DNA of 63,680 bases, counting the filler, from Ferroacidibacillus organovorans (GTDB taxonomy: Bacteria > Bacillota > Bacilli > Alicyclobacillales > SLC66): NCBI RefSeq assembly GCF_001642725.1. It is 4 parts of 4 records of this genome, joined end to end, with 100 filler letters (N's around TTAATTAATTAA, not from the genome) between each part and the next. Parts side by side here need not be neighbours in the genome. Positions count along the whole stretch, not along the records: positions 36,060 to 53,793 come from NZ_LSUQ01000054.1; 3 more parts are not named here. The stretch is one strand, 5' to 3'. The position numbers are program-made. Below, piece by piece: positions 47,501 through 53,500 of this stretch; position 1 is the stretch's first letter; the number at the start of each line of letters is the position of its first letter.

Positions 47501-50500
47501 AAACCGCTGATCGGAACTTCCGGCTTCACGAAGGTAAAGGGGTGAGCGGCAAACTAACGTGGGGAGAACAAACCGGACAAGGCACCATGAAAGGGCGAGA
47601 AGAACCGCTGTCTATTCGCGGGCGGTATGATTTGCACTGGGCTAATTACAGTCGTGTAAGCAGCAAAAGTGGCGGAGAGTTTCAGTGCCTGATGCTTTCA
47701 ACAAGTGGAGTTCAAACGGAGTCTACTGAAAAAGCATGGTCACCCCCTTCAGTTATCACCGCTACCGAAATCGTGACTGGTTTCACCAACACGACTGAGA
47801 TAGCAGTAAAGGACGACGGCGCGACACCATGGTTTGATTCGTTTGCGAAGCAGGGAGAAATTCCGTTGTCCCAAATTGATCTGCGAGACAAACTTGCCAA
47901 TCATCTGCGCGAAGTTGGATACTTGGTGTCCGTAAATCGTGACCTCGGTAATGAAAAAATTGACATATGGGCGGAACGGGACAACGAAACCATCGCGATT
48001 GAGGTGCGGAATAAAACGGCACTGATTCAAGCGGTTTATCAGGGACAATCCATCAGCCTCAAGAACCAGGCCGCCCAAGATGTTTCGCGGTATGACTATA
48101 TCAGCGATATTGGCAAGTTAGAGAGCGTGGTAAGAAATCGACCTGATGTTACGGGGTATGCGCTGCTTCTGTCCAATGATTCCGGTTACTGGAATCCACC
48201 AAAGAAACTCAACGCTGTTGATGGCAAGTTTCGTATCCACGATGGGCGATTACTTAGTGGGGTCTGTTCTTGGGCAGATGAAGCCGCATCGGGAACCACG
48301 TCGGGGAGGGAAGTACCCATTCATTTGACTGGTACATATCCGTTGGAGTGGCGACCGTATTTAAGACTGGACAATGCAAAGAATCACGAGTTTCAAGCAC
48401 TACTTGTGAAGGCGACCAATCTGCCGAAACCTTCTGCTCATTAAACGACAGAGTTGGTTGGTCTTGACTGATGGGAAACTGACTCAGAAAGGGCTCAAAT
48501 ACGGTGACATTGGCTCCATGGCGAGGGGGCAGTGGAGATGGCGGTAAGTTCAGCGTACTCGACCTATGGGTGCAAAGATGCCACAAACGTGACAATAGGG
48601 TGCAAACAGGACAGGCGAGGGCGTGGCTCGGATGCGGGTTCTGACCCATGATGGTAGAATTATATGTAGAATGTTCAGTTTGCTTCTACAGAGTGCATCT
48701 CGATTCTCTCGGGCAGACTGACTCATGAGAATGAATTCCAGGGAGGAATAGGGTCAATGTCTAACGACTCGTCGAGCCACAAATACACCAACAGCCTCAT
48801 CCATGAAAAATCCCCATACCTCCTGCAACACGCCCACAACCCAGTCGACTGGTACCCATGGGCCCCAGAGGCATTCCAGAAAGCCGCCCGTGAATCGAAA
48901 GCCGTATTCCTCTCCATCGGCTATTCGTAGCCCTGCGGGGCTACGAATAGCTGTATACGCTGAAAGTGGAGTACTTTACCGACCTGTCACTGGTGTCACG
49001 TCATGGAAAGAGAATCGTTCGAGGACGAAGCGGTTGCGGAGATTTTGAATCGCGAGTTTGTGTGTATCAAGGTGGATCGGGAAGAACGACCGGATATTGA
49101 TCAAGTGTACATGAGTGTTTGTCAAGCGATGACGGGGCAGGGAGGATGGCCGCTGACCATCGTGATGGACAGTGCGCAAAGGCCTTTTTTCGCGGGAACC
49201 TATTTTCCGAAGGTGTCGGCCTACGGGCGGCCGGGGCTTCTTGACTTGTTGCCGCGTCTTGCGACTGTGTTTCGAAGTGAGCCTGAGCGTGTAGAGCAAG
49301 TCTCTTCGCAAATTGTATCTGCGCTTAAGCGTGCGGAGCAAGAAACAAAGTCGAGGAGTATCAGCGCGCCAGATCGTGCGCTACTTGAGCGTGCTGTGTT
49401 GCAGTACGCGAAGACCTATGATGAGACGTATGGCGGTTTTTCGGATGCGCCAAAGTTTCCGTCGCCCCACAATGTGGTGTTTTTGTTGAACCACGCTGCG
49501 CTTACGGGTGATGAAGATGCTCGCAAGATGGCGCTTCACACACTTCGGGCCATGGCGTATGGCGGAATTTGGGATGTGGTCGGATACGGTTTCTCTCGTT
49601 ACTCTACAGATCGCGCGTGGCTCGTTCCGCATTTTGAGAAAATGTTGTATGACAATGCGCTCCTTCTTCAAGCGTATACGCTCGCGTTTCTGATGACGCG
49701 CGATCCTTTTTATCAATCGATCGCAGAGAAAATCGTCACGTATGTGATGCGTGATCTTACCGCTCCTGAGGGTGTCTTCTATTGTGCAGAAGATGCTGAC
49801 TCAGAAGGGGAGGAAGGCAAGTTTTATGTGTGGCGAGCGACTGAACTACGTGAATTGCTTGATCCGCAGCACACAGATGAATTTATGAAGGCGTTCGGTG
49901 CTTCCGAATCGGGAAATTTTGAGGGTGCAAACATTCTTCACACACCATACACCTTTTGGGGTGAACCAGCGAAGGACCGGGATAAGCGATTTTCATCAAG
50001 TTTATCCCGTTTGTTCGAGGTGCGCGAAAAACGGATACGTCCGCATCTCGACGATAAAATTCTGACATCTTGGAATGCGCTCATGATCGGCGCCTTGGCG
50101 TTTGCGGGGCGTGTTTTTAAGCGGGAGGACTACATCGCGTGGGCGCGTCGCGCAGATGATTGGATTGAAGCGAACATGGTGCGGGAGGATGGCCGTCTCT
50201 TGGCGAGATACCGCGATGGGGATGCACGCTATCTTTCGTATCAGGAAGACTATGCGTATCTCGGATGGGCGAAGTTGCAACTCTATGATGCGACATATGA
50301 TCCAAGCGATCTCGCTCGCGCGGTCGCATGGACGGATGAGATGGTGCGCTTGTTTTGGGATGAACAACACGGTGGATTTTATTTTTATGGCAGTGATGGG
50401 GAATCGTTGCTTGCGCGTCCTAAAGAAATCTATGACGGTGCGCTTCCTTCTGGCAATTCTGTAGCTGCGTACGTGCTTGCGCGTCTGCGCGCTATGCTTG

Positions 50501-53500
50501 GGCAAACGCGACATCAAGAACTGTGCGATCGTCAAATCGCCGTGTTTTATCGTGAAGTTGAATCCCACCCCGTCGGCTATGCCCAATATCTTCAGGCGCT
50601 TCAGTGGCTGCTCTATCCGACGAGTGAGGTAGTCCTTGTGATTCCGGAGCAGGCGAAGAACGCCACTGCCTTTTTAGAGGCGCTCACAGACCACGTCCAT
50701 CCTTTGCGCTCGACCATCGTTCTCAAGGAGCAAGACCGCACGCTGATTCATCAGCTTGCACCTTACACAATCGATCACGTGGCGCGAGACGGCAAGATAA
50801 CCGCATATGTCTGTGAATCCTTTGCGTGTAAGTCGCCAGTAACCGACGTCGAGGGACTTCTCAAACAAATCACGACCTGAGCGCATTTTGAAGAAGCGTA
50901 GATTCATTTCACGTAAGCATCATTTAAAGAAGCGATGATCAAGTTTTGACTTACTAAAGAGTTTCTCAAAGCTATCCTCATCATCTTGCGGAGAAAAAAG
51001 AGAAGCGAAGTCTTCTTCTTCTGATGCCGTAGAAGGTGAGGTTGCTTTCATTTGTTTATAGGCTAGTACGTTTTTTACTCTGCGCGAATCAGACGTCGGC
51101 GCAACGATTTCACCTTTTGGCTTTACCTGTTCTTTTAAACGCAGGAGTGCGTCTCGCTGTGCACTTCCCAAACGCTGCCCGAGCGTTTCTGGCTCTACAC
51201 TTGACGCGGTTTTTTGTGGCGCATTTCCGCGCTTTTTATTAGCCGTTTGCCCCGGTTCATCCGCATCCTCAGTGTACCTCGGTTCGCGCACAATCTTGCG
51301 CTTGCGGCTCGGCCCGTGGTGGACATCTTCACGTTCGCGGGCGATGTAGCCCATCTTGATCAGTTCATCGAGCAAGACGTCAGGCAGCGGCGTCACGATA
51401 AAAATCTCTTGAACAGCGGTTGTCGTCTTCGCCAAAAGCTTCAGACCTTGGTCTGTAAAGTATTGAAACGTAAGCGTCTCTTGATAACTTTTCGACGGTG
51501 CGATCGTGCCTGTCAAGATGGATTCCACTTCATCAAGCGTTGCGATCTGACGCAAAACCTTCCCAAAATCGCCGATGATCGTGTGCAATATTTTTACTTT
51601 GCCATCGCGCCTTCGATGATCTGCCATGGTTTTTCTCCCTTTCCTTAAAAAGGGATCTCGCGATCGAGAGATCCCTTGACGCGTGAGGTTTAAAGCTTTG
51701 CGAGCACGCTGCGAACGCCATCGGCCGATTTGTGGAGCGCGCTTCGCTCTGCCGTGGTGAGCTCAATCTCGACGATTTTTTCGACACCATCTTTGCCAAG
51801 CATCACAGGCACGCCGAGAAAGAGATCGGTGACGCCGTACTGCCCTGTGACATAGGCCGAGCAAGGAAGAATTCGCTTTTGATCTTTAAGGATCGACTCC
51901 ACCATCTGAACGATCGATGCGCCAGGCGCGTAGTATGCGCTGCCCGTTTTGAGGAAGTTGACAATTTCGGCGCCGCCTTGTCGCGCGCGCATGACAAGTT
52001 TGTCAATCGTCGCTTGGTCAAGCAGCGTTTCAATCGGAATCCCGCTGACGTAGGAGTAGCGTGGAAGTGGAACCATGTCATCGCCGTGTCCACCCAGCAC
52101 GAACGCCGTGACGTCTTTCACGCTAACGCCGAGTTCCATCGCGATGAATGTGCGAAAGCGTGCTGAGTCAAGTACGCCGCCAAGACCAACGATTCGCTCA
52201 GGGGCAAACCCACTTTCGCGAAACGCGACTTGCGCCATGACATCCGAAGGATTGGTGACGAGCACAAGCTTTGCGTTCGGTGAGCGCGGCGCAATTTCTT
52301 TCATGACAGAGCGAATCACTTTTACGTTTGTATCCATCAGGTCGTCACGGCTCATGCCAGGTTTTCTCGCAATTCCTGCGGTGATGACGATGACATCAGA
52401 GTCGGCAGTCGCATCGTATTCGTTTGTTCCTACGATGTTCGAGTCAAAACCAAGTACAGGAGAAGATTCCATCATATCGAGTGCCTTGCCTTGCGGAATT
52501 CCTTCAACAATGTCGGTGATGACAATGTCGCCGAGTTCCCGCATGGACGCGTATTGCGCTACAGTAGCTCCTACGTTTCCTGAACCAACGACGGTGATCT
52601 TTGCCCGTTTCATGGATACACACCCCTTATATGCATTCCCATTCACTTACTAGAGTAACGAACAAAGAGGTGCAAGTGCAACTGTTTCATAAAATTTTAT
52701 CGTGTTGTTATGGAACGGAACGTTTTGTAAATCACTACCGGAAGTGTCCGCGATCTGTGGTATAATTTGCGCGTAGATTTGGATGGCAACTCCCTGAGAG
52801 GTGCAACTATGGATCGTGAATCAAAGGCGTCAAAAGAACGAAAAGCAGAGTTTAAGACGCCGTCTGGCCTGCCTCTGAATCAAGTTTACACAGAAGCAGA
52901 TGTCGCGACTGGATTGGAAGACCGCCTGTCACTTCCTGGCGTGTATCCGTTTACACGTGGTGTACAATCGACGATGTACCGCAGTCGCCTGTGGACGATG
53001 CGGCAGTACGCCGGGTTTGGTTCGGCGAAGCAGACCAATGAACGCTTTCGCTACCTTCTCGATCAAGGTCAAACGGGTCTCTCTACCGCCTTCGATCTTC
53101 CGACGCAGATCGGGTACGACGCGGATCACCCGTTTTCCAGAGGTGAAGTAGGCAAAGTGGGGGTTTCCATTTCCTCGCTTCTTGATATGGAGACGCTGTT
53201 TGAAGGAATTCCGCTTGACCGCGTAAGCACGTCAATGACGATCAACGCACCCGCCTCTGTGCTGTTGGCGATGTATATCGCGGTCGGAAAAAAGCAAGGC
53301 GTCGATCCACAAAAACTGGCGGGAACGATTCAAAACGATATTCTTAAAGAGTACGTTGCCAGAGGAACGTATATTTATCCACCTGGCCCGTCTATGCGAC
53401 TGATTACTGACATTTTTTCGTATTGTGCAGAACATGTTCCAAACTTTAACACGATCAGCATCAGCGGCTATCACATGCGCGAAGCGGGCTCGACCGCCGT

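What a model noticed while it worked through the whole genome (the two positions that open the first line are those of the whole stretch)
48757..50880. Gene-60-like coding gap: a stop-codon hairpin insert splits the thioredoxin-motif gene yyaL yet both halves stay conserv [...]
The yyaL (DUF255/SPATA20-like) gene is interrupted, exactly between ..SIGYS and TCHWCHVM.., by a 54-nt non-coding insert (C54:12869-12922) that begins with UAG and folds with the last sense codons into a 12-bp hairpin capped by a UNCG-type tetraloop; inserts of 19-61 nt, often not a multiple of three, sit at the same codon in most Alicyclobacillales, and five more copies of the 57-codon 5' piece plus insert lie at the ends of serine-recombinase elements stacked at this locus. 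I read the insert as a coding gap that ribosomes hop over (programmed translational bypass as in phage T4 gene 60): its 3' half is the recombinase's attachment-site arm, which must sit inside the gene, and each incoming [...]
Evidence so far: Sequence: GGC UAU UCG UAG CCC UGCG GGG CUA CGA AUA GC..GGAGUACUUUA CCG ACC UGU CAC UGG UGU CAC; the caller split the gene into g02584 (57 aa) and g02585 (starts at the Met after CHWCH). In 30 yyaL loci of the order: 5 uninterrupted (..SIGYSTCHWCH..), 24 with an insert at this codon, 1 without the motif. A pattern scan of 185,579 species genomes gave 43 more loci, nearly all Alicyclobacillaceae/Bacillota MAGs, one Melghirimyces. 39 distinct alleles: stop codon directly after the Ser codon in 39 of 39; gap lengths 19-61 nt, 15 of 39 not divisible by 3; frame 0 blocked in 39 of 39. 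Hairpin: 32 distinct 5' parts, each of 12 pairs formed in 25-31 of 32; pair 6-29 covaries with the Tyr wobble base [...]
(Added by a program. Inside this text positions count along the whole contig: they may not be those of the stretch shown here. "Call 12" and the like, gene names such as g00115 and contig names such as C1 are that model's own, and its searches are not shown. The text may have been shortened before it was handed on; [...] marks where a part breaks off. The agent that wrote the report below was given it as the finding of a first reader that could run no searches.)

Follow-up and report, generated by a model that had tools for sequence, protein, structure and literature searches.

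The report
Stop-hairpin coding gap splitting yyaL
A thioredoxin-like gene of acid-loving bacilli is cut in two by a short stop-plus-hairpin insert left by mobile DNA, yet both halves stay under selection, so ribosomes may hop over it as in phage T4 gene 60; no protein data show this yet.

Summary
yyaL (Pfam PF03190) is split exactly between profile positions 47 and 48 by a 54-nt insert (48928-48981) that starts with UAG and forms a 16-bp hairpin with the last sense codons. In the order, 46 of 51 evaluable yyaL loci carry a 19-61-nt insert at this codon, and every one begins with a stop. The last 17 nt of the insert plus ACCTGTCAC form the left half-site of a large-serine-recombinase att site. 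Elements bring their own 5' piece and pile up displaced ones.

New here:
- 7 of 10 complete genomes have a "solo" interrupted gene with no element beside it.
- In a five-species clade that shares one 33-nt gap, the 5' piece has dN 0-0.009 against dS 0.1-1.1. The gap varies at 6 of 33 sites against 32 of 66 four-fold sites.
- The seven codons TCHWCHV vary only synonymously in 46 of 46 interrupted loci.
- The hairpin tolerates G-U (28 cells) but not A-C (3), so it acts as RNA.
- Its tip equals the T4 gene 60 A-site hairpin plus one more C-G pair.

Most alleles lack any start codon for the 3' piece. Translational bypass is the best reading (about 0.5) but is unproven. Against it: landing codons are cognate in only 30 of 56 gaps, and not in this window (UCG/CCG). 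A few alleles have SD+ATG, and some gaps lack a hairpin.

The parts
48757..48927 (+). 5' piece of yyaL: 57 codons, own SD (GGGAGGA at 48741-48747), ends ..SIGYS
   Evidence: Pfam PF03190 positions 1-47, E 3.5e-19. Six more copies in the genome at 65-91% aa identity.
48925..48927 (+). [quoted passage not shown]
   Evidence: In the order loci, TCG in 39 of 41 hairpin-type loci (TCC in L008 and L049). The 5 uninterrupted loci use AGC, TCT or TCC. The genome has tRNA-Ser cga, tga, gga and gct.
48928..48981 (+). 54-nt coding gap (class A): UAG, hairpin 3' arm, conserved spacer, recombinase arm; second in-frame stop TGA at 48961-48963
   Evidence: The gap differs by 0-6 of 54 nt between class A loci whose 5' pieces have dS 0.46-1.3.
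48918..48953 (+). RNA hairpin: 16 pairs, core 12 pairs 48922-48933 with 48938-48949, loop UGCG 48934-48937; contains the take-off codon and UAG
   Evidence: 93.8% of 546 cells paired, against 30-49% when the partner is slid. G-U 28, A-C 3 in 43 distinct long stems. No Rfam match and no terminator-like site.
48954..48966 (+). Conserved spacer between hairpin and arm (..TATACGCTGAAAG); function not assigned
   Evidence: Conserved in classes A, B and the 56-nt type. Lies outside the dyad symmetry.
48967..48990 (+). Left half-site (P-type arm) of the serine-recombinase att site; holds GGAG (48968-48971) 7 nt before the last gap codon
   Evidence: the same 24 nt recur as an inverted repeat on the far side of TG in attL/attP-type sites (16-21 of 24).
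48979..48981 (+). Last codon of the gap, CCG here (proposed landing codon; not cognate to UCG)
   Evidence: Last codon of 56 distinct gaps: TCG 27, CCG 11, TGG 8, GCG 3, other 7.
48991..48992 (+). Central TG of the att site (inferred crossover)
   Evidence: Centre of dyad symmetry. Own contigs C72, C83 and C86 end at or within ACCTGTCACTG, and copies diverge after it.
48993..49016 (+). Right half-site (B'-type arm), inside the coding sequence
   Evidence: 6-12 of 24 match the left arm in attR/solo sites.
48982..50880 (+). 3' part of yyaL: 632 codons from TCHWCHVM.. to the stop; first in-frame ATG at 49003
   Evidence: PF03190 positions 48-162. PDB relatives 7tkv_A (CHWCH from residue 56) and 3ira_A. 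The only copy in the genome.
36071..48441 (+). Context upstream on the same contig: type I R-M S and R subunits, a 577-aa ORF, a STAND NTPase with Cap4-like nuclease, a 412-aa ORF; possible cargo of the element that brought this 5' piece
   Evidence: Pfam. The contig starts at 36060, so the element's far end is not seen.

Best explanation
The insert is the scar that large-serine-recombinase (LSR) elements leave when they integrate into the TCHWCH codons of yyaL.

How the gap arises:
- Each element carries its own promoter-proximal 57-codon 5' piece. This is followed by a stop codon, usually an RNA hairpin, and the 17-nt outer part of its left att arm.
- After integration, or after the element is later lost by recombination between 5' pieces, the gene reads: 5' piece, then a gap of 19-61 nt, then the 3' part.

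Proposed mechanism, inferred and not shown:
1. Ribosomes that have decoded the last Ser codon meet UAG inside a small G-C hairpin with a UNCG-type loop.
2. They fail to terminate. They keep peptidyl-tRNA-Ser and slide over the gap.
3. They resume at the codon after the last gap codon. That codon is placed in the P site by GGAG 6-7 nt upstream and, where present, by re-pairing to UCG.
4. The product is one full-length YyaL with an intact thioredoxin-like CxxC site.

Shown: the anatomy, the att function of the 3' half, the RNA nature of the hairpin, and selection on both halves and on the gap. Inferred: take-off, sliding, landing and the fused product.
For: 1. The break is seamless at Pfam positions 47/48.

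2. 46 of 51 evaluable order loci have a gap at this codon. All 56 distinct gaps start with a stop, and 24 are not a multiple of 3.

3. The gap persists without any element. 7 of 10 complete genomes checked have a single 5' piece and no LSR gene near it (G002, G003, G004, G006, G007, G008, G028). In each of G004, G006 and G007 the nearest LSR gene is more than 200 kb away.

4. Selection with the gap in place, in five species sharing one 33-nt gap:
- 5' piece dN 0-0.009 against dS 0.10-1.09.
- 3' part dN 0.03-0.07 against dS 0.23-0.65.
- Gap variable at 6 of 33 sites against 32 of 66 four-fold sites, Fisher p 0.004. All six variable sites lie in the loop or at positions 22-27.

5. The seven codons TCHWCHV between the gap and the first ATG show only synonymous variants in 46 of 46 interrupted loci. 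All complete 3' frames are 604-738 codons long.

6. No ATG, GTG, TTG, CTG, ATT, ATC or ATA lies in the 3' frame after the last stop in 23 of 46 interrupted loci. These include all 11 class A loci, four of the five class C loci and L042.

7. The hairpin is RNA on the sense strand:
- 43 distinct long stems: WC 477, G-U 28, A-C 3, other 8.
- One compensatory pair, UA 24 / CG 10.
- No terminator-like tail.

8. The hairpin tip UAG-CCC-U(G/U)CG-GGG-CUA matches the T4 gene 60 take-off tip UAG-CC-UUCG-GG-CUA, read from AF158101. In T4 that part forms a 12-nt hairpin in the A site that holds the stop codon and hinders RF1 (PMC5462505, passages).

9. GGAG lies 7 nt before the last gap codon here. A run of 3 or more SD-like bases lies 4-10 nt before it in 49 of 56 gaps. 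Gene 60 homologues have a mini-SD 5-7 nt before the landing codon (bioRxiv 10.1101/2022.08.31.505936, section 10).

10. The last gap codon is read by the same tRNA as the take-off codon in 30 of 56 gaps: TCG-TCG 27, AGC-AGC, AGC-AGT, TCC-TCT. In the 21 clusters, all but one (TCC-GCT) are within one mismatch once third-base wobble is allowed.

11. Class A left arms read TCGAC or CCGAC where the mirrored right arms read YGGAC in 11 of 11 symmetric sites. The left arm thus departs from symmetry towards the Ser codon.
Against: - No protein, ribosome-profiling or RNA data exist. No RNA run was listed.
- In this window the last gap codon is CCG against take-off UCG.
- 26 of 56 distinct gaps are non-cognate. 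Class B (TGG, 8 gaps) has no UCG anywhere in the gap.
- GGAG and the last gap codon lie in the recombinase arm and are mirrored in the right arm. Their presence needs no translational reason. The take-off/landing likeness may be a footprint of att homology or of how the insert arose.
- Four order loci (L033, L037, L038, L048) and the own displaced copy C68 have GGAG or GAG + 6 nt + an in-frame ATG two codons before TCHWCH. A split product may suffice there.
- Five 19-20-nt gaps lack the hairpin and an SD-like run.
- Take-off triplets inside the gaps are not depleted: 7 seen against 10.65 expected.
- Class A spreads by transfer, so its gap conservation may serve the element rather than the host.
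- In the five-species clade the 33-nt gap is in frame and open after UAG, so read-through is not excluded there.
Confidence: 0.5

Rival explanations
1. Split gene. The 57-residue N-fragment and a separately initiated C-fragment that includes TCHWCH are made as two polypeptides and assemble into the thioredoxin-like fold. The immediate stop gives the N-fragment a clean end. The arm's GGAG serves as the SD for the C-fragment, possibly by reinitiation after termination.
For: - GGAG + 6 nt + an in-frame ATG in L033, L037, L038 and L048, and GAG + 6 nt + ATG in the own displaced copy C68.
- GTG in L012.
- An in-frame ATA two codons before TCHWCH in all 8 class B loci.
- Both halves are under selection, which this model also explains.
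- The break lies just before the CxxC. The N-terminal 50-55 residues precede it in 7tkv_A and 3ira_A.
Against: - 23 of 46 interrupted loci, including this window, have no canonical or near-cognate start in frame after the last stop.
- L023, a solo gene in the complete genome G028, has AGG where its relatives have ATG.
- The model gives no role to an RNA hairpin that encloses the stop codon and is conserved in solo genes.
Confidence: 0.2
2. Broken gene. Integration inactivates the thioredoxin-like domain. At most the C-terminal part is made from the Met after CHWCH. The conserved look of both halves reflects fast turnover of elements and recent interruption.
For: - Elements turn over fast. The identical 3' part is joined to a class B arm in contigs of three metagenome runs.
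- 5' pieces are far more alike than 3' parts across genera.
- The gene caller starts the 3' gene at that Met.
- yyaL has no known essential role (own knowledge).
Against: - Five species share one vertically inherited 33-nt gap. Their 5' piece has dN/dS near 0 at dS up to 1.09.
- 7 of 10 complete genomes have solo gaps.
- All 45 complete 3' frames are intact. TCHWCHV shows only synonymous change in 46 of 46 loci.
- The first 115 codons of the 3' part, which need the missing strand and CxxC to fold, have dN 0.017-0.034 against dS 0.35-0.78.
Confidence: 0.12
3. Another recoding or repair route. Options are read-through of UAG with the gap translated (possible only where it is in frame and open), Pyl- or Sec-like insertion, two frameshifts, or removal of the gap from the RNA.
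For: - The 33-nt gap of the five-species clade, L042, L012, five class B loci and L049 are in frame and open after UAG.
- A hairpin next to a stop codon is also the layout of Sec and Pyl insertion signals (own knowledge).
Against: - 24 of 56 gaps are not a multiple of 3.
- Class A, including this window, has a second in-frame stop.
- In the five-species clade the in-frame codons change non-synonymously while the stem never varies.
- The stop is UAG, not UGA, and no Rfam family matches.
- The gaps share no 3' boundary structure that a splicing enzyme could use.
- No gap-less DNA joint appears in four runs, though these are contigs only.
Confidence: 0.08

Closest known systems
Phage T4 gene 60 bypass cassette and its homologues in Myoviridae topoisomerase genes (bioRxiv 10.1101/2022.08.31.505936, sections 3 and 10 read; PMC5462505, passages; T4 record AF158101 read)
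   Same: - A coding gap of similar size (50 nt in T4, 20 nt in the Aeromonas clade; 19-61 nt here) at a fixed codon.
- A stop (mostly UAG) directly after the take-off codon.
- The take-off codon sits in the 5' side of a stem whose tip is CC-UUCG-GG around the stop.
- G-U and compensatory changes keep the stem.
- An SD-like run lies 5-7 nt before the landing codon.
- The cassette is brought by a mobile element and sits in that element's own target site.
   Different: - A cellular chromosomal gene (yyaL), not a phage topoisomerase.
- The carrier is a serine-recombinase element, not a MobA homing endonuclease.
- The 3' half of the gap is itself the recombinase arm.
- Landing codons are cognate in only 30 of 56 gaps, whereas the preprint reports all gene 60 homologues as matched.
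- No nascent-peptide signal is known, and no product has been shown.
- Whether the hairpin tip is homologous or convergent cannot be told.
Byps of Magnusiomyces capitatus mitochondria (as summarised in the introduction of bioRxiv 10.1101/2022.08.31.505936; original papers not read)
   Same: Short inserts of 27-55 nt that spread like mobile elements, break reading frames, and are bypassed so that functional proteins are made.
   Different: - There, the A-site codon is a sense codon without a tRNA, not a stop.
- Many sites per genome, against one site here.
- A mitochondrial translation system.
- No link to a recombinase site.
Streptomyces phage Hau3 terminase, UUA-triggered bypass of 10-nt blocks (PMC10732093, passages)
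   Same: - A short frame-breaking insert in a conserved gene of a Gram-positive system.
- A slow A-site codon, a stem-loop and SD-like signals were proposed.
- A junction peptide was found by mass spectrometry in E. coli, which is the kind of test needed here.
   Different: A regulatory use tied to a rare tRNA; much shorter gaps; a phage gene; no att site.
Integrative elements that carry a replacement end of their target gene, and large-serine-recombinase prophages or intervening elements inside Bacillota genes
   Same: Integration inside a gene; the element supplies a copy of the displaced gene end; successive elements pile up displaced ends.
   Different: In the usual cases the replacement end joins the rest in frame, or the gene is restored by excision. 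Here the replacement end is separated from the rest by a non-coding arm, and the gap stays after the element is gone.

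Membership tests
Gene-60-type programmed translational bypass (works-like test) | Non-coding gap inside an ORF whose two flanks align without loss to uninterrupted homologues | tested here: met
   PF03190 positions 1-47 and 48-162. 5 uninterrupted order loci read ..SIGYSTCHWCH...
Gene-60-type programmed translational bypass (works-like test) | [quoted passage not shown] | tested here: met
   UAG at 48928. 56 of 56 distinct gaps start with TAG, TAA or TGA.
Gene-60-type programmed translational bypass (works-like test) | Take-off stem-loop with the take-off codon in its 5' side and a small G-C/UNCG tip around the stop | tested here: met
   Tip compared with T4. Not present in the five 19-20-nt gaps.
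Gene-60-type programmed translational bypass (works-like test) | Take-off and landing codons read by the same tRNA | tested here: not met
   Window: UCG against CCG. Met in 30 of 56 distinct gaps. For this reason I claim 'works like', with SD-guided landing as an added assumption, and not membership.
Gene-60-type programmed translational bypass (works-like test) | SD-like run 5-7 nt 5' of the landing codon | tested here: met
   GGAG at 48968-48971, 7 nt before CCG. 49 of 56 gaps have such a run 4-10 nt upstream. It is also part of the att arm.
Gene-60-type programmed translational bypass (works-like test) | Nascent-peptide signal and one fused polypeptide | not testable with these tools
   No proteome or profiling data. 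No RNA run listed.
Gene 60 / MobA cassette family (homology) | Sits in a phage topoisomerase gene next to a MobA homing endonuclease | tested here: not met
   The host gene is yyaL and the carriers are LSR elements. No match in phage records or viral contigs.
Large serine recombinase attachment site | Imperfect dyad symmetry of about 24 nt on each side of a central dinucleotide, with an LSR gene in the adjoining element | tested here: met
   16-21 of 24 positions match in 9 attL/attP-type sites. In G021, G034 and G036, six of the seven displaced 5' pieces have an LSR gene 2-11 kb to their right. Own contigs C72, C59 and C68 have one within 2 kb. Recombination itself was not tested.
Split gene with two independently translated parts | SD and a canonical start codon in frame ahead of the downstream part | tested here: not met
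   The window's 3' frame after TGA reads AAG TGG AGT ACT TTA CCG, with no start. Met in L033, L037, L038, L048 and L012.
Thioredox_DsbH / DUF255 (PF03190), YyaL-like | Profile match over the curated cut-off, and a CxxC motif | tested here: met
   69.8 and 163.4 bits against a cut-off of 27. CHWCH is present. Relatives 7tkv_A and 3ira_A.

The most novel reading that the evidence does not exclude
Serine-recombinase elements of Alicyclobacillales carry a portable bypass cassette: a stop codon inside an A-site hairpin like that of T4 gene 60, followed by an SD-guided landing pad that doubles as their att arm. With it they can place their attachment site inside the active-site codons of a host gene and still leave the gene working. 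The cassette outlives the element, so dozens of species now depend on ribosomes hopping 19-61 nt to make YyaL. This would be the first programmed long-range bypass in a cellular bacterial gene. It would also be either convergent with, or related to, the T4 cassette.
Probability: 0.45. Interest if true: 0.9.

Novelty: new variant of a known kind. Interest (0 to 1): 0.8.

Why it matters
According to the papers read here, programmed long-range bypass is known from T4 gene 60 and its phage homologues, from one yeast's mitochondria, and as a candidate in a Streptomyces phage.

What this case would add:
- A chromosomal bacterial example spread over at least 45 species genomes of the order.
- About 20 natural variants: different gap lengths, loops, stem lengths, cognate and non-cognate landing codons, and hairpin-less forms. 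That is a ready-made mutational series for the mechanism.
- Several cultured strains in which it can be tested.

It would also show a new way for a mobile element to target the most conserved codons of a gene without killing it, and would explain why this locus collects defence islands.

If bypass is refuted, a natural two-piece thioredoxin-fold protein, or a long-lived broken gene under selection, would still need explaining.

For annotation: gene callers currently split these genes into a 57-residue ORF and a truncated ORF that lacks the CxxC site.

Tried and rejected
- Earlier findings of the scan were not open.
- No RNA holder was listed for the stretch. The four runs laid were DNA contigs only. 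They showed no joint that removes the gap, which is weak because contigs drop rare forms.
- Rfam: no match at E up to 1.
- Terminator or promoter reading of the hairpin or gap: no terminator-like site, and no promoter-like site on the + strand, in 48400-49200.
- Phage or plasmid carriers: no match in phage records. There were two short matches to ordinary thioredoxin-domain genes in plasmids. Two viral-contig pattern hits were not of yyaL type.
- Depletion of take-off triplets inside the gaps, a test for scanning: 7 seen against 10.65 expected. This gives no signal either way, and the clustering was crude.
- Decay of displaced 5' pieces against active ones at 33 core columns: means 1.43 (14 attL/attP pieces) against 1.62 (47 attR/solo pieces), so no clear difference. 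Several displaced copies do carry unique radical changes.
- The same hairpin at other genes of this genome: none. The 12 regex hits are the two strands of six yyaL pieces.
- A DNA palindrome for a dimeric protein: rejected because G-U outnumbers A-C 28 to 3.
- A -1 or +1 frameshift for the 19-20-nt gaps: considered by eye. Either there is no slippery site or the 3' frame is blocked just upstream.
- Literature: searches found nothing on an interrupted yyaL, on bypass in Alicyclobacillus, or on bypass linked to serine recombinases or attachment sites. One search failed on a term that was too long.
- Not used: complex prediction (a pass for two halves of one fold would not separate bypass from a split protein), structure prediction, and the large protein searches.
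- Supplements of the bioRxiv preprint are closed. Its figures S2-S5 on nascent-peptide and flanking stem-loops could bear on the comparison.

Full report
**1. What is in the window**

The window is a chain of contigs joined by 100-base spacers that contain N runs. The finding lies on contig C54, which starts at window position 36060.

At 48757 an ORF with a good SD starts. It runs 57 codons to GGC TAT TCG and is stopped by TAG at 48928. Fifty-four bases later the frame reads ACC TGT CAC TGG TGT CAC GTC ATG and continues for 632 codons to 50880.

Pfam PF03190 (Thioredox_DsbH, DUF255) matches the first piece at profile positions 1-47. It matches the second piece, from its first residue, at positions 48-162. 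Nothing is missing and nothing is added.

In the solved relatives 7tkv_A and 3ira_A, the CHWCH motif starts at residue 56 of 7tkv_A and the preceding Thr is residue 50 of 3ira_A. The 5' piece is therefore the part of the fold that precedes the active site.

The last five sense codons, the UAG and the next 23 bases form a 16-pair hairpin with a UGCG loop (48918-48953). The 111-nt stretch folds at -43 kcal/mol, z -4.18, and none of 200 shuffles does as well. The in-frame reading of the insert meets a second stop, TGA.

**2. The insert is half an attachment site of serine-recombinase elements**

The genome holds six more copies of the 5' piece (65-91% amino-acid identity) on other contigs. Each is followed by TAG and the hairpin. 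There is only one 3' part.

- Three of those contigs end at or within ACCTGTCACTG.
- The other three continue into a sequence that is the inverted repeat of the last 17 bases of the insert plus ACCTGTCAC.

I compared 41 sites. In attL/attP-type sites the 24 bases left of the TG in CAC-TG-G match the reverse complement of the 24 bases to its right at 16-21 positions. Where the right side is the yyaL coding sequence, only 6-12 match. This is the layout of a large-serine-recombinase site with TG as the central dinucleotide. That crossover is inferred, not tested.

The genome has 18 matches to the recombinase domain PF07508. Three of them lie within 2 kb of a 5' piece.

In three complete genomes of the order the pieces form arrays:
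- G034 has 2 pieces, G021 has 4 and G036 has 3.
- Six of the seven displaced pieces have a recombinase gene 2-11 kb to their right.
- Spacing between pieces is 58-269 kb.

In G043 four pieces lie 3.4, 4.9 and 19 kb apart. No recombinase ORF is left between them. The cargo includes regulators, an efflux pump and defence-type helicases and methylases.

In the window the stretch upstream of the 5' piece is likewise a defence island: type I R-M and a STAND NTPase with a Cap4-like nuclease.

Contigs of three metagenome runs join the identical 3' part to a different arm, class B. Turnover is therefore fast.

**3. Spread and forms**

The 3' part matches 55 of 64 genomes of the order. I fetched 52 loci from 51 genomes. 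Three partial matches were left out (G055, G024, G057).

With the window, 51 loci can be judged:
- 5 are uninterrupted.
- 46 carry an insert at exactly this codon.

A pattern scan of one genome per species gave 74 hits. Of these, 36 are of yyaL type, all from Alicyclobacillaceae or unnamed Bacillota except one Melghirimyces. The other 38 failed my filter. Most are from unrelated phyla, and a few from related MAGs were not examined further.

Together there are 56 distinct gaps:
- Length is 19-61 nt, and 24 are not divisible by three.
- The first codon is TAG in 51, TAA in 3 and TGA in 2.

Main forms:
- Class A: 54 nt; includes this window.
- Class B: 51 nt.
- Class C: 33 nt; found in five species.
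- Several types of 29-61 nt.
- Five gaps of 19-20 nt that consist of a stop codon plus the arm only, with no hairpin.

**4. The gap is a lasting part of working genes**

Ten complete genomes were checked for 5' pieces and recombinases. Seven have a single 5' piece, the one next to the gap, and no recombinase gene near it. In each of G004, G006 and G007 the nearest one is more than 200 kb away. These solos cover class B, class C, a 20-nt gap and three other types. Order-wide, most gap-bearing assemblies hold one piece.

A locus with a class A gap but a class B-like 5' piece (L007) fits loss of elements by recombination between repeated 5' pieces. That route is inferred.

The five class C species share the same N-terminal extension and the same 33-nt gap, so the gap predates their split. 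Since then:
- The 5' piece has dN 0-0.009 against dS 0.10-1.09.
- The first 115 codons of the 3' part have dN 0.017-0.034 against dS 0.35-0.78.
- The whole 3' part has dN 0.03-0.07 against dS 0.23-0.65.
- Within the gap, 6 of 33 sites vary, against 32 of 66 four-fold sites in the flanking codons (Fisher p 0.004). The variable sites are one loop base and positions 22-27. The stem, the UAG and the last six bases never vary.

In class A the 5' pieces have dN about 0.02 at dS 0.46-1.3, while the gaps differ at 0-6 of 54 bases. Because class A moves between genera, that constraint may serve the element.

Across all 46 interrupted loci the seven codons TCHWCHV, which lie between the gap and the first ATG, show every possible synonymous variant and no amino-acid change. 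All 45 complete 3' frames are 604-738 codons long. A recombinase site has no reason to vary only at third positions.

So the 5' piece, the active-site codons and the rest are all translated and needed while the gap is present.

**5. The hairpin acts as RNA**

Among 43 distinct long stems, pairs 1-12 give 477 Watson-Crick cells, 28 G-U, 3 A-C and 8 others.

The 5' arm is fixed by coding, so transitions in the 3' arm yield G-U at six pairs and A-C at six others. Only the first kind is seen in numbers. The events are spread over several gap classes.

On a 39-row alignment:
- 93.8% of cells pair, against 30-49% when the partner is slid.
- The Tyr wobble base covaries with its partner (UA 24, CG 10).
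- Rows are related, so these are not probabilities.

A DNA palindrome would not tolerate G-T while rejecting A-C. There is no U-tract after the stem and no Rfam match.

**6. Comparison with gene 60**

I read the T4 region from AF158101.
- There the take-off GGA is followed by UAG-CC-UUCG-GG-CUA, and GAG lies 6 nt before the landing GGA.
- Here UCG is followed by UAG-CCC-UGCG-GGG-CUA. Six distinct alleles have a UUCG loop.

Cryo-EM of the T4 take-off complex found a 12-nt hairpin of three C-G pairs and a UUCG loop in the A site. It contains the stop codon and hinders RF1 (PMC5462505, passages).

Manning and Atkins (bioRxiv 10.1101/2022.08.31.505936, sections 3 and 10) list these features for dozens of homologues:
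- A stop (UAG, sometimes UGA) or a hungry codon after take-off.
- A stem kept by compensatory and wobble changes, with a CC-UUCG-GG tip.
- A mini-SD 5-7 nt before landing.
- Matched codons, allowing same-tRNA wobble.
- One clade with a 20-nt gap and a much reduced stem.

Apart from matched codons, each of these has a counterpart here.

**7. Where the fit fails**

- The last gap codon is TCG in 27 of 56 gaps, CCG in 11 (this window among them), TGG in 8, GCG in 3 and other codons in 7.
- With AGC-AGC, AGC-AGT and TCC-TCT, 30 of 56 are read by the take-off tRNA. The genome has tRNA-Ser cga, tga, gga and gct. In the 21 clusters, all but one of the rest are one mismatch away once third-base wobble is allowed.
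- This likeness, and GGAG, lie in the recombinase arm and are mirrored in the right arm.
- One hint of extra selection: class A left arms read TCGAC or CCGAC where the 11 symmetric right arms read YGGAC.
- Class B has no UCG in the gap.
- Four order loci and one displaced copy here have GGAG or GAG, six bases, then an in-frame ATG two codons before TCHWCH. A separate C-fragment could start there. A solo relative, L023, has AGG at that place.
- The 19-20-nt gaps lack the hairpin and SD, yet one is a solo. Two of them show dN 0.009 against dS 0.41 in the 5' piece.
- Take-off triplets inside gaps are not depleted.

**8. Reading**

The facts that must be explained together are these:
- An immediate stop in 56 of 56 gaps.
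- An RNA hairpin around it that is conserved in solo genes.
- Selection on the 5' piece and on TCHWCH.
- No start codon in half of the loci.
- Gap lengths in all three phases.

Read-through fails on phase and on the second stop. A split gene fails where there is no start. A dead gene fails on selection. Bypass covers all of them if landing is set mainly by GGAG, with codon re-pairing as a help rather than a rule. That last point is my assumption.

My estimates are bypass about 0.5, a two-polypeptide solution 0.2 (possibly the true state in the ATG-type alleles), a broken gene 0.12, other routes 0.08, and the rest unknown.

**9. Novelty**

Six literature searches found no report of an interrupted yyaL, of bypass in these bacteria, or of bypass tied to a recombinase site. 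The kind of mechanism is known. The host, the carrier and the double use of the gap as att arm would be new.

The decisive test is a junction peptide or a tagged reporter, as set out under next steps.

Noticed in passing
window 18062-18161, 35960-36059, 53794-53893: The window is a chain of four contigs (C52 to C55) joined by 100-base spacers with N runs. The 105-nt 'direct repeat family' is these spacers, not biology.
   Followed up: yes
window 36071-48441: A defence island lies directly upstream of the yyaL 5' piece: type I R-M S and R subunits, a 577-aa ORF without Pfam match, a 1485-aa STAND NTPase with a weak Cap4-like nuclease N-terminus, and a 412-aa ORF without Pfam match. A stack in a relative carries other defence-type cargo. 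The yyaL site looks like a hotspot for such islands.
   Followed up: partly
L007 (G059), against L001 and L031: A chimeric allele: a class B-like 5' piece (..FNRPMLLSIGYS) joined to a class A gap. It fits homologous recombination between stacked 5' pieces, which would also explain how solo gaps arise.
   Followed up: partly
window 48981-49400, in runs X5, X6 and X7: Contigs with the identical 3' part (0-1 differences over 420 nt) carry a class B arm end (..GAGTAATATATG) instead of the window's class A arm. Strains of one population differ in which element sits at the site.
   Followed up: no
class B gaps, e.g. own contigs C8 and C83, L001, L011: GGAG + 6 nt + ATG with ideal spacing, but one base out of the yyaL frame. 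It would give a short peptide across the att core. Its meaning is unknown.
   Followed up: no
whole genome G000: There are 18 matches to the large-serine-recombinase domain PF07508 in a 3.0-Mb genome. One relative (G021) has seven identical 741-aa copies that look like an insertion-sequence-like family.
   Followed up: no
window 48954-48966 and the same place in classes A, B and the 56-nt type: A conserved run (..ATATACG, 5-7 nt, then TGGAGT) lies between the hairpin and the arm, outside the att dyad symmetry. No function is assigned.
   Followed up: no
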